From Escherichia coli (GTDB taxonomy: Bacteria; Pseudomonadota; Gammaproteobacteria; Enterobacterales; Enterobacteriaceae): a stretch of 64,000 bases of DNA. This document shows, piece by piece, positions 45,030 to 49,040 of the stretch. Numbering within the stretch: the stretch's first letter is position 1; each line of letters starts with the position of its first letter. The stretch lies in the NCBI RefSeq assembly GCF_024223415.1, contig NZ_CP100500.1. One strand, written 5' to 3'. The translations under genes were made by a program, and so were the position numbers. Below the pieces are notes generated by a model. The model ran no database searches and was not told the DNA's origin. It worked only from the letters and a program-made list of their open reading frames with translations.

Positions 45030-47383
<2,354 letters not shown>

Positions 47384-47629
47384 TTAATTTACTAAACATG
47401 GTTTGGTCAGCATAGCATCATGTTGTGCGAATAAACACCTGCTATTTTAATATTTGTTACAGTGGCTAAACACGCTGACGCAGGGCGGCGAGAAAAAGAG
47501 AAGTTACTGGCTGGTGGAGGATTAGGTGGTGAAATAAAAAGGCCGTTGGGTTACTCTTCAGGCAGTTAAATGGGCATTTCTACACAGATAATGCGATGTT
47601 CAGATTCTGTAGACTTATAATGATAGATA

Positions 47630-47785
47630 ATGATCCGTCTACAGCATGACAAACAAAAACAGATGCGTTACGGAACTTTACAAAAACGAGACACTCTAAC
47701 CCTTTGCTTGCTCAAATTGCAGCTAATGGAGTGGCGTTTCGATAGCGCGTGGAAATTTGGTTTGGGGAGACTTTACCTCGGATGA
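47630..47785 (+). CDS. rseD: 51-aa upstream ORF translationally coupled to rpoE (RseD-type leader ORF)
   Basis: ATG at 47630 to TGA at 47783-47785, which overlaps the rpoE ATG (ATGA); product MIRLQHDKQKQMRYGNLQKRDTLTLCLLKLQLMEWRFDSAWKFGLGRLYLG. Below the ORF-track cut-off. Confidence 0.65.
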   Translation: MIRLQHDKQKQMRYGTLQKRDTLTLCLLKLQLMEWRFDSAWKFGLGRLYLG

Positions 47786-48357
47786 GCGAGCAGTTAACGG
47801 ACCAGGTCCTGGTTGAACGGGTCCAGAAGGGAGATCAGAAAGCCTTTAACTTACTGGTAGTGCGCTATCAGCATAAAGTGGCGAGTCTGGTTTCCCGCTA
47901 TGTGCCGTCGGGTGATGTTCCCGATGTGGTACAAGAAGCTTTTATTAAAGCCTATCGTGCGCTGGATTCGTTCCGGGGAGATAGCGCTTTTTATACATGG
48001 CTGTATCGGATTGCTGTAAATACAGCGAAAAATTACCTGGTTGCTCAGGGGCGTCGTCCACCTTCCAGTGATGTGGATGCCATTGAAGCTGAAAACTTCG
48101 AAAGTGGCGGCGCGTTGAAAGAAATTTCGAACCCTGAGAACTTAATGTTGTCAGAAGAACTGAGACAGATAGTTTTCCGAACTATTGAGTCCCTCCCGGA
48201 AGATTTACGCATGGCAATAACCTTGCGGGAGCTGGATGGCCTGAGCTATGAAGAGATAGCCGCTATCATGGATTGTCCGGTAGGTACGGTGCGTTCACGT
48301 ATCTTCCGAGCGAGGGAAGCTATTGATAACAAAGTTCAACCGCTTATCAGGCGTTGA
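47782..48357 (+). CDS. rpoE: RNA polymerase sigma-E (sigma-24)
   Basis: MSEQLTDQVLVERVQKGDQKAFNLLVVRYQHKV..., 191 aa. Confidence 0.97.
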   Translation: MSEQLTDQVLVERVQKGDQKAFNLLVVRYQHKVASLVSRYVPSGDVPDVVQEAFIKAYRALDSFRGDSAFYTWLYRIAVNTAKNYLVAQGRRPPSSDVDAIEAENFESGGALKEISNPENLMLSEELRQIVFRTIESLPEDLRMAITLRELDGLSYEEIAAIMDCPVGTVRSRIFRAREAIDNKVQPLIRR

Positions 48358-48389
48358 CGATAGCGGGATACTGGATAAGGGTATTAGGC

Positions 48390-49040
48390 ATGCAGAAAGA
48401 ACAACTTTCCGCTTTAATGGATGGCGAAACGCTGGATAGTGAGCTGCTTAACGAACTGGCTCATAACCCAGAAATGCAGAAAACCTGGGAAAGCTATCAC
48501 TTAATCCGTGACTCAATGCGGGGTGATACTCCCGAGGTGCTCCATTTCGATATCTCTTCACGCGTGATGGCCGCCATTGAAGAAGAGCCAGTACGTCAAC
48601 CGGCGACATTGATCCCGGAAGCCCAGCCTGCGCCGCATCAATGGCAGAAAATGCCATTCTGGCAGAAAGTACGTCCGTGGGCGGCACAGCTTACCCAAAT
48701 GGGCGTAGCCGCATGCGTATCGCTTGCAGTTATCGTTGGCGTCCAGCACTATAATGGACAATCTGAAACGTCCCAGCAGCCCGAAACGCCGGTATTTAAT
48801 ACACTGCCGATGATGGGTAAAGCCAGCCCGGTTAGCCTGGGAGTACCTTCTGAAGCGACCGCAAATAATGGTCAACAGCAGCAGGTACAGGAGCAGCGTC
48901 GTCGCATTAATGCAATGTTGCAGGATTACGAACTGCAACGCCGACTCCACTCTGAACAGCTTCAGTTTGAGCAGGCGCAAACCCAGCAAGCCGCTGTACA
49001 GGTGCCAGGAATTCAAACTTTAGGAACGCAATCGCAGTAA
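48390..49040 (+). CDS. rseA: Anti-sigma-E factor RseA
   Basis: MQKEQLSALMDGETLDSELLNELAHNPEMQKTWESYHL..., 216 aa, single TM segment. Confidence 0.95.
   Translation: MQKEQLSALMDGETLDSELLNELAHNPEMQKTWESYHLIRDSMRGDTPEVLHFDISSRVMAAIEEEPVRQPATLIPEAQPAPHQWQKMPFWQKVRPWAAQLTQMGVAACVSLAVIVGVQHYNGQSETSQQPETPVFNTLPMMGKASPVSLGVPSEATANNGQQQQVQEQRRRINAMLQDYELQRRLHSEQLQFEQAQTQQAAVQVPGIQTLGTQSQ

What the first reader, a model, noticed from the sequence alone, without database searches (positions are those of the whole stretch)
47630..47785. 51-codon upstream ORF coupled to rpoE, missing from the ORF track
An ATG-initiated 51-codon ORF ends in ATGA, where ATG is the rpoE start. This matches what I recall as the rseD leader ORF that couples rpoE translation to upstream regulation, but it is shorter than the 60-aa cut-off of the supplied track and so easy to miss.
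Basis: partly seen in the sequence, partly recalled or inferred. Interest (0 to 1): 0.4.

Follow-up and report, generated by a model that had tools for sequence, protein, structure and literature searches.

The report
Known rpoE leader ORF rseD
The 51-codon ORF is real and is the already described and annotated E. coli leader gene rseD, whose stop codon overlaps the start of the stress sigma-factor gene rpoE, so the finding is correct but ordinary.

Summary
An ATG-initiated 51-codon ORF lies at 47630..47785 (+), and its TGA (47783-47785) overlaps the rpoE ATG (47782-47784) in an ATGA. The window is the E. coli nadB / rseD-rpoE-rseA-rseB-rseC locus. RefSeq annotates "rpoE leader peptide RseD" at exactly these coordinates, and the DNA matches a genome whose RseD has the same protein accession as in K-12. 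The peptide scores 104 bits against NCBIfam NF033697 (cut-off 35). Held papers treat rseD as the first gene of the operon, list it among EcoCyc leader peptides, and report its expression (lacZ fusion, PIRT-seq).

My own analysis adds some nuance:
- The ATGA alone says little, because nearly all gamma-proteobacterial rpoE genes start ATG-A.
- The full-length ORF is found only in Escherichia, Shigella, Citrobacter and a few scattered species.
- Its substitutions show no coding signature (6/7/7 by codon position, omega about 0.6, against 0.03 for rpoE).
- Its conserved parts coincide with regulatory DNA and RNA elements: the sigma-E promoter inside the ORF, GGA motifs of the CsrA type, and the Shine-Dalgarno (SD) sequence.

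So what matters is probably the act of translating it, and only on transcripts from the distal promoters. Interest is low.

The parts
47630..47785 (+). rseD coding sequence (51 codons plus TGA), the rpoE leader ORF
   Evidence: ORF list. RefSeq annotation at identical coordinates. NCBIfam NF033697 at 104 bits.
47782..47785 (+). ATGA overlap: rpoE start codon ATG (47782-47784) and rseD stop codon TGA (47783-47785)
   Evidence: Sequence. Annotated 4-nt overlap of rseD and rpoE.
47782..48357 (+). rpoE coding sequence (191 aa), the downstream coupled gene
   Evidence: TIGR02939 RpoE at 328.7 bits. Annotation.
47672..47699 (+). Sigma-E-dependent (autoregulated, 'P6') promoter inside rseD: -35 GGAACTT 47672-47678, 16-nt spacer, -10 TCTAA 47695-47699. 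The predicted start site is about G47706, downstream of the rseD ATG.
   Evidence: Only exact match to GGAACTT-N16-TCTAA in the window. Hexamers nearly invariant in 24 Enterobacterales. Motif, spacing and 5/6-nt discriminator come from PMC1312014. PMC8595263 states that promoters lie upstream of or within RseD. The start-site position is inferred.
47751..47782 (+). Three GGA motifs of the CsrA-binding type in the 3' part of rseD: GUGGAAA (GGA 47751-53), the rpoE SD GGGGAG (47764-47769; GGA 47766-68), and CGGAUGA over the rpoE start codon (GGA 47780-82)
   Evidence: Motif positions. Blocks conserved across Enterobacterales. PMC7652899 reports three CsrA sites in rpoE mRNA, two over the SD and the start codon. 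PMC5694010 reports EMSA Kd of 5 nM and repression of an rpoE'-'lacZ fusion. Assigning the three published sites to these motifs is my inference.
47616..47621 (+). Perfect TATAAT hexamer ending 9 nt before the rseD ATG, conserved as AGACTTATAATGA in Enterobacteriaceae. It is a candidate -10 of one of the distal rpoE promoters.
   Evidence: Sequence and alignment A1. There is no recognisable -35, and the two-hexamer scanner found nothing. Its function is inferred, not shown.
47706..47713 (+). Conserved GCTTGCTC box at the predicted 5' end of the sigma-E transcript. It can pair (47705-47713 with 47784-47792) with the G of the rpoE AUG and codons 2-4.
   Evidence: MFE fold. Consensus fold of 24 Enterobacterales. 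98.6% of cells paired against 24-44% when slid, but there is no covariation because the 3' arm is invariant coding sequence. Hypothetical.
47726..47728 (+). Internal in-frame ATG (RseD Met33). It is the only in-frame ATG that would be present on the sigma-E-promoter transcript, and would give a 19-codon ORF ending at the same TGA.
   Evidence: Start-codon list. 19-21-codon ATG ORFs at the same place in Serratia, Photorhabdus and Enterobacter cloacae. There is no SD, and use of this ATG is untested.

Best explanation
This is rseD, the known leader ORF of the E. coli rpoE operon.

Ribosomes that start at the rseD AUG (47630) can do so only on transcripts from promoters upstream of it. They translate 51 codons through the rpoE leader and terminate at the UGA of AUGA. 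They then restart at, or clear the way for initiation at, the overlapping rpoE AUG.

This raises rpoE translation, whose own initiation region looks weak. The SD GGGGAG lies 12 nt from the AUG, the region has pairing potential, and three GGA sites bind the repressor CsrA.

The peptide itself is probably not the functional product.

Shown here: the ORF, the overlap, its identity with annotated RseD, its conservation pattern, and the regulatory motifs inside it.

Taken from the literature: that it is translated, that CsrA binds and represses, and that coupling exists.

Inferred: that coupling is limited to distal-promoter transcripts, and that it works by opening an occluded start region.
For: Identity:
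- RefSeq rseD lies at the same coordinates, and the 201-nt region is at least 99% identical in 5425 of 5426 complete E. coli genomes. rseD was annotated in 40 of 40 sampled genomes.
- NF033697 scores 104 bits.
- Homologues are named RseD.

Translation:
- A lacZ fusion and PIRT-seq both detected expression (PMC12350097).
- EcoCyc lists it as a leader peptide.

CsrA:
- There are three sites, two over the SD and the AUG (PMC7652899).
- EMSA and repression in vivo are reported (PMC5694010).
- GGA motifs sit at 47751, 47766 and 47780.

Coupling geometry:
- The overlap is ATGA.
- The uORF frame stays open for a median of 38 codons in 32 Enterobacterales, against 18 and 14 in the other two frames. 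It is at least 30 codons in 23 of 32, against 8 and 4.

Act of translation rather than peptide:
- E. coli versus Citrobacter substitutions fall 6/7/7 by codon position with omega about 0.6. For rpoE they fall 3/1/31 with omega 0.03. Both E. coli versus E. albertii changes are non-synonymous.
- Indels between the conserved blocks are not multiples of three.
- The conserved peptide segments coincide with the sigma-E promoter, the SD and the GGA motifs.

From my own recollection of Yakhnin et al. 2017: loss of coupling lowered rpoE translation by more than 50%.
Against:
- No SD precedes the rseD ATG or any other in-frame start, so how initiation occurs there is unclear.
- The autoregulated sigma-E promoter is predicted to fire at about 47706, inside the ORF. 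The stress-induced transcript therefore cannot encode full-length RseD, and coupling cannot explain rpoE translation from it.
- The ATG start and the 51-codon length are not conserved outside Escherichia and Citrobacter. Several Enterobacterales have only 8-20 open codons.
- The substitution counts are small (20 differences).
Confidence: 0.9

Rival explanations
1. RseD is a functional small protein that takes part in the envelope stress response as a peptide. Under this view, coupling mainly serves to set the ratio of RseD to RpoE.
For: - The ORF is at least 99% conserved in all E. coli genomes.
- It is expressed (PMC12350097).
- It is the first gene of an operon whose other Rse proteins regulate sigma-E.
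- From memory, Yakhnin et al. 2017 raised this possibility.
Against: - There is no coding-type substitution pattern: 6/7/7 by codon position, omega about 0.6 against 0.03 for rpoE.
- Homologues are limited to Escherichia, Shigella and Citrobacter.
- The frame and the start are not conserved in Enterobacter, Pantoea, Serratia and others.
- Variants truncated to 39-40 aa are deposited for E. coli (P0006, P0013).
- There is no Pfam domain.
- The high conservation within E. coli is explained by the promoter, SD and CsrA elements inside the ORF.
Confidence: 0.08
2. The long ORF is largely a by-product of conserved regulatory DNA and RNA that happens to lack stops in one frame. Translation of full-length rseD is a minor contributor. 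rpoE is made mainly from the sigma-E-promoter transcript, which lacks the rseD AUG, by direct initiation or via a short 19-codon ORF from Met33.
For: - The sigma-E promoter lies inside the ORF, with a predicted start site at about 47706.
- There is no SD before the rseD ATG.
- The conserved part is only the last 20 or so codons.
- 19-21-codon ATG ORFs ending at the same ATGA occur in Serratia, Photorhabdus and Enterobacter cloacae.
- The chance rate of such an ORF is 0.7-2%, which is not negligible.
Against: - Translation of rseD has been detected twice by reporter fusions.
- The uORF frame is open for longer than the other two frames across Enterobacterales.
- Distal promoters, for example sigma-S-dependent P4, are described as among the most active (PMC5736990).
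- From memory, the coupling loss of more than 50% was measured.
Confidence: 0.2
3. It is a chance ORF that is not translated.
For: - The sequence-only probability is 0.7-2%.
- The ATGA is forced by the Met-Ser start of RpoE.
Against: - Reporter-fusion and PIRT-seq evidence show expression.
- There is a curated NCBIfam equivalog and an EcoCyc entry.
Confidence: 0.02

Closest known systems
rseD (ORF51), the rpoE leader peptide gene of E. coli K-12 (Yakhnin et al. 2017; NCBIfam NF033697; WP_001303621.1)
   Same: Everything tested matches: position, frame, 51 codons, the 4-nt ATGA overlap with rpoE, and an identical protein accession.
   Different: Nothing. This is the same gene in another E. coli genome.
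idlP-iraD (a short upstream ORF translationally coupled to iraD, with CsrA acting through the uORF). Mechanism from my own knowledge of Park et al. 2017; idlP appears in the EcoCyc leader-peptide list.
   Same: A short leader ORF is translationally coupled to a stress-regulator gene, and CsrA is the repressor of the system.
   Different: In idlP-iraD, CsrA blocks the uORF's own ribosome-binding site. Here the GGA motifs lie at the 3' end of rseD, over the rpoE SD and AUG, so CsrA acts on the downstream initiation site.
uof-fur (an upstream ORF coupled to fur; listed as a leader peptide). Mechanism from my own knowledge.
   Same: Translation of a global regulator depends on translation of a short overlapping upstream ORF.
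   Different: uof is controlled by the sRNA RyhB. No sRNA site is known or was found here, and Rfam gave no match.
Classical attenuation leader peptides (trpL, hisL, leuL, pheL and others)
   Same: A short translated ORF in the 5' leader of an operon, called a 'leader peptide'.
   Different: There is no terminator-like hairpin between the ORF and rpoE and no run of regulatory codons. The ORF overlaps the downstream start instead of preceding an attenuator.

Membership tests
RseD (rpoE leader peptide; NCBIfam NF033697 equivalog) | Sequence scores above the curated cut-off of the family model | tested here: met
   104.2 bits against a cut-off of 35, E = 3e-30, covering residues 7-51 and profile positions 1-45 of 45.
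RseD (rpoE leader peptide; NCBIfam NF033697 equivalog) | Lies directly upstream of rpoE on the same strand, with its stop codon overlapping the rpoE start codon | tested here: met
   ATGA at 47782-47785. RpoE identified by TIGR02939. Annotated the same way in RefSeq.
RseD (rpoE leader peptide; NCBIfam NF033697 equivalog) | Same frame, length (51 aa) and sequence as the published K-12 gene | tested here: met
   The window DNA is 100% identical to strain C over 47375-47900. RseD in strain C is WP_001303621.1, the same accession as in K-12 BW25113.
RseD (rpoE leader peptide; NCBIfam NF033697 equivalog) | The ORF is translated in vivo | not testable with these tools
   Literature only: lacZ translational fusion and PIRT-seq in-frame reporter insertions (PMC12350097).
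RseD (rpoE leader peptide; NCBIfam NF033697 equivalog) | rpoE translation depends partly on translation of the ORF (translational coupling) | not testable with these tools
   The primary paper is not held. The coupling result is recalled from memory. The geometry (4-nt overlap) is compatible.
CsrA-repressed mRNA leader | GGA-containing sites overlapping the SD and/or start codon of the repressed gene | tested here: met
   GGA at 47766 (within SD GGGGAG), 47780 (CGGAUGA over the AUG) and 47751, all conserved. Binding itself comes from the literature.
Transcription-attenuation leader peptides (trpL type) | An intrinsic terminator or antiterminator between the leader ORF and the structural gene | tested here: not met
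   No terminator-like site in 47375-47800. The ORF overlaps the rpoE start, leaving no room for one. No Rfam leader family matched.

The most novel reading that the evidence does not exclude
rseD may act as a promoter-isoform-specific translational booster.

Only transcripts from the distal (sigma-70, sigma-54, sigma-S) promoters would carry its AUG. That AUG might be used with a very short leader, or none, from the conserved TATAAT at 47616-47621.

The sigma-E-autoregulated transcript would start at about 47706 inside the ORF. Its 5'-terminal GCUUGCUC box would then pair with the rpoE AUG and codons 2-4, damping translation of the autoregulatory isoform unless a 19-codon mini-ORF from Met33, or relief from CsrA, opens it.

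None of this is excluded by my evidence. None of it is shown either.
Probability: 0.25. Interest if true: 0.3.

Novelty: already known. Interest (0 to 1): 0.08.

Why it matters
RpoE (sigma-E) is essential in E. coli, and both too little and too much of it are harmful, so every layer that sets its level matters. rseD is one such layer. It has been named since 2017 and is annotated in RefSeq, EcoCyc and NCBIfam.

For the scan, the finding shows that functional ORFs under 60 aa are lost by the ORF-track cut-off, and that the first-stage reader can recover them.

The open points are modest:
- which transcript isoforms actually use rseD;
- how its SD-less AUG is recognised;
- why the long ORF exists only in Escherichia and Citrobacter.

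Tried and rejected
- The primary papers were not held: Yakhnin et al. 2017 and Klein et al. 2016. Exact published start sites and the coupling data could not be checked, so I used secondary sources.
- Pfam gave only a sub-threshold DUF7878 hit (12.7 bits against 25). I reject it as noise.
- Rfam at E <= 1 gave nothing in 47300-48500.
- The two-hexamer sigma-70 and terminator scanner found nothing in 47375-47800. The TATAAT at 47616 therefore remains only a candidate -10.
- The covariation test of the 5'-box:start-codon helix was uninformative because the 3' arm is invariant coding sequence.
- Looking further out (Vibrio, Pasteurellaceae, Aeromonas, Shewanella) did not support the helix. Those taxa show a different local GCUCG...CGAGC pairing around the AUG. 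Pasteurellaceae keep a GCTTGCT box although rpoE starts with different codons.
- The longer 173-nt leader is not unusually structured (z = -0.76). The 96-nt sigma-E leader is only weakly so (z = -1.59).
- I considered a classical attenuator and rejected it: there is no terminator.
- Salmonella and Klebsiella pneumoniae were not among the 80 loci returned, so rseD status there was not tested.

Full report
**Observation.** The sequence and the ORF list show an ATG-initiated ORF at 47630..47785 on the + strand. It has 51 codons plus TGA and encodes MIRLQHDKQKQMRYGTLQKRDTLTLCLLKLQLMEWRFDSAWKFGLGRLYLG. The tetranucleotide ATGA sits at 47782-47785. The downstream gene therefore starts at 47782, and the two reading frames overlap by 4 nt. 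The downstream ORF (47782..48357, 191 aa) is RpoE (TIGR02939, 329 bits). It is followed by rseA, rseB and rseC, and nadB is divergent upstream. No ORF of 30 aa or more lies on the opposite strand under the feature.

**Is it more than chance?** From sequence alone, only moderately. In 20,000 dinucleotide-preserving shuffles of the 407-nt nadB-rpoE spacer, an ATG ORF of at least 51 codons ending at this ATGA appeared in 0.7%. Of all 541 ATGA sites in the window, 2.2% have such an ORF. The ATGA itself carries no information. Nearly all of the 80 gamma-proteobacterial rpoE loci fetched start ATGA, because RpoE begins Met-Ser or Met-Asn. The case therefore rests on annotation, experiments and conservation.

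**Identity.**
- The 526-nt region is present once in 5425 of 5426 complete E. coli genomes. RefSeq annotates "rseD: rpoE leader peptide RseD" there.
- In strain C, which is 100% identical to the window, rseD lies at L001 2756..2911 and rpoE at 2908..3483. These map exactly to window 47630..47785 and 47782..48357.
- Its protein accession, WP_001303621.1, is also the RseD of K-12 BW25113.
- The core 201 nt (47600-47800) is at least 99% identical in all 5425 genomes. All 40 genomes sampled evenly down the ranking annotate rseD.
- The peptide scores 104.2 bits against NCBIfam NF033697 "leader_RseD" (equivalog, cut-off 35).
- Its database homologues are named RseD.

**Literature.**
- PMC8595263 and PMC9147696 describe the operon as rseD-rpoE-rseA-rseB-rseC, with RseD as the rpoE leader peptide. 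PMC8595263 also states that all rpoE promoters lie upstream of or within RseD.
- EcoCyc lists rseD among leader peptides (bioRxiv 10.1101/2020.07.18.207399).
- PMC12350097 detected rseD expression by PIRT-seq. It notes earlier validation by a chromosomal lacZ translational fusion, citing Yakhnin et al. 2017.
- The primary paper was not held. From my own recollection of it, ORF51/rseD was shown to be translationally coupled to rpoE, with more than 50% loss of rpoE translation when coupling was abolished.

**What is conserved.** I used RpoE as an unbiased anchor and compared 32 Enterobacterales loci.
- The uORF frame stays open for a median of 38 codons, against 18 and 14 in the other two frames. 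It reaches at least 30 codons in 23 of 32, against 8 and 4. Openness of this frame is therefore favoured, although related sequences are not independent samples.
- A full-length ATG ORF of about 50 codons occurs only in Escherichia, Citrobacter and a few scattered species. Many genera have no ATG in the frame, and some have only 8-20 open codons.
- The alignment shows conserved blocks separated by indels that are not multiples of three. The blocks are a TATAAT just before the rseD ATG, the sigma-E promoter hexamers, a GCTTGCTC box, and the stretch GAGTGGCGTTTCGAT..ACGCGTGGA..GGGGAGAC.TTACCTCGGATG.
- Between E. coli and Citrobacter, rseD differences fall 6/7/7 on codon positions 1/2/3, with omega about 0.6. 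For rpoE they fall 3/1/31, with omega 0.03. Both E. coli versus E. albertii differences are non-synonymous.
- Truncated variants of 39-40 aa are deposited for some E. coli.

The peptide sequence therefore shows no sign of purifying selection. Its apparently conserved segments are the translation of regulatory DNA and RNA.

**Anatomy and mechanism.**
- The only exact GGAACTT-N16-TCTAA in the window lies at 47672-47699, inside rseD. With the 5/6-nt discriminator and purine start preference of sigma-E promoters (PMC1312014), the autoregulated transcript should begin at about G47706. That is 76 nt before the rpoE AUG and 76 nt after the rseD AUG. Full-length RseD can therefore be made only from distal-promoter transcripts. 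Six rpoE promoters are described (PMC6358824), and the sigma-S-dependent P4 is among the most active (PMC5736990).
- The rpoE initiation region looks intrinsically poor. The SD GGGGAG (47764-47769) is 12 nt from the AUG. GGA motifs lie at 47751, 47766 and 47780. The SD and start can pair locally.
- A ribosome terminating at the UGA of AUGA is ideally placed to reinitiate, and would have displaced structure and possibly CsrA. That is the coupling explanation.
- No SD precedes the rseD AUG. How it is recognised is open. The conserved TATAAT ending 9 nt upstream suggests a very short leader, but this is speculation.

**A possible extra layer.** The predicted 5' end of the sigma-E transcript (UGCUUGCUC, 47705-47713) can form nine pairs with 47784-47792, the G of the AUG plus rpoE codons 2-4. 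This appears both in the single-sequence fold and in the consensus fold of 24 Enterobacterales.
- All 11 one-sided changes keep pairing. Overall, 98.6% of cells are paired, against 24-44% when the partner is slid.
- There is no compensatory change, because the 3' arm is invariant coding sequence.
- The z-score is only -1.6.
- More distant taxa do not support it.

I record it as a hypothesis only.

**Comparison and verdict.** This is not merely like rseD. It is rseD. Functionally it belongs with coupling-type leader ORFs such as idlP-iraD and uof-fur. It does not belong with attenuation leader peptides, because there is no terminator and no Rfam match. Interest is low. The residual questions are isoform specificity, SD-less initiation and the narrow taxonomic range of the long ORF. 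These are refinements of a known system.

Noticed in passing
window 47672-47699 (predicted start site about 47706): An exact sigma-E promoter consensus (GGAACTT-N16-TCTAA) lies inside the rseD reading frame, downstream of its ATG. The autoregulated, stress-induced rpoE transcript therefore cannot encode full-length RseD, and coupling can apply only to distal-promoter transcripts.
   Followed up: partly
window 47616-47621: A perfect TATAAT ends 9 nt before the rseD ATG. It is conserved as AGACTTATAATGA across Escherichia, Citrobacter, Enterobacter, Pluralibacter, Pseudescherichia and Superficieibacter, and has no recognisable -35. It may be the -10 of a distal rpoE promoter, giving rseD a very short leader or none. 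The rseD ATG has no SD.
   Followed up: partly
window 47705-47713 with 47784-47792: A conserved GCTTGCTC box at the predicted 5' end of the sigma-E transcript is complementary to the rpoE start region (G of AUG plus codons 2-4). The pairing is kept in 24 Enterobacterales, with only compatible one-sided changes and no covariation. Outside Enterobacterales a different local GCUCG/CGAGC pairing flanks the AUG.
   Followed up: partly
window 47726-47728; L025, L029 and L004 upstream of position 1501: The internal in-frame ATG (Met33) would give a 19-codon ORF ending at the same ATGA on the sigma-E transcript. Serratia grimesii and Photorhabdus have 19-codon ATG ORFs, and Enterobacter cloacae a 21-codon one, at the equivalent place.
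   Followed up: no
proteins P0003, P0004, P0006, P0013: Deposited RseD variants include a premature stop after residue 40 (P0006; 20 contigs), a frameshifted 39-aa form, and a 48-aa form. The 48-aa form has a 3-codon deletion that falls in the sigma-E promoter spacer. There is also a 64-aa Shigella flexneri form that reads past the ATGA. Some may be sequencing errors.
   Followed up: no
window 47764-47781; L033-L081 upstream of 1501: The long distance from SD to AUG for rpoE is conserved from Enterobacterales to Vibrio, Shewanella and Pseudoalteromonas. It is 12 nt after GGGGAG in E. coli and about 11 nt after GGAG in the others. This suggests that a deliberately weak or structured rpoE start site is ancient, while the long uORF is recent.
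   Followed up: no
window 22104-22131 (- strand): A one-mismatch match to the sigma-E promoter pattern (GGAACATTTCGGCCAAAGCCTGATCTAA). About 0.17 such matches are expected by chance in the window, and I did not examine it further.
   Followed up: no
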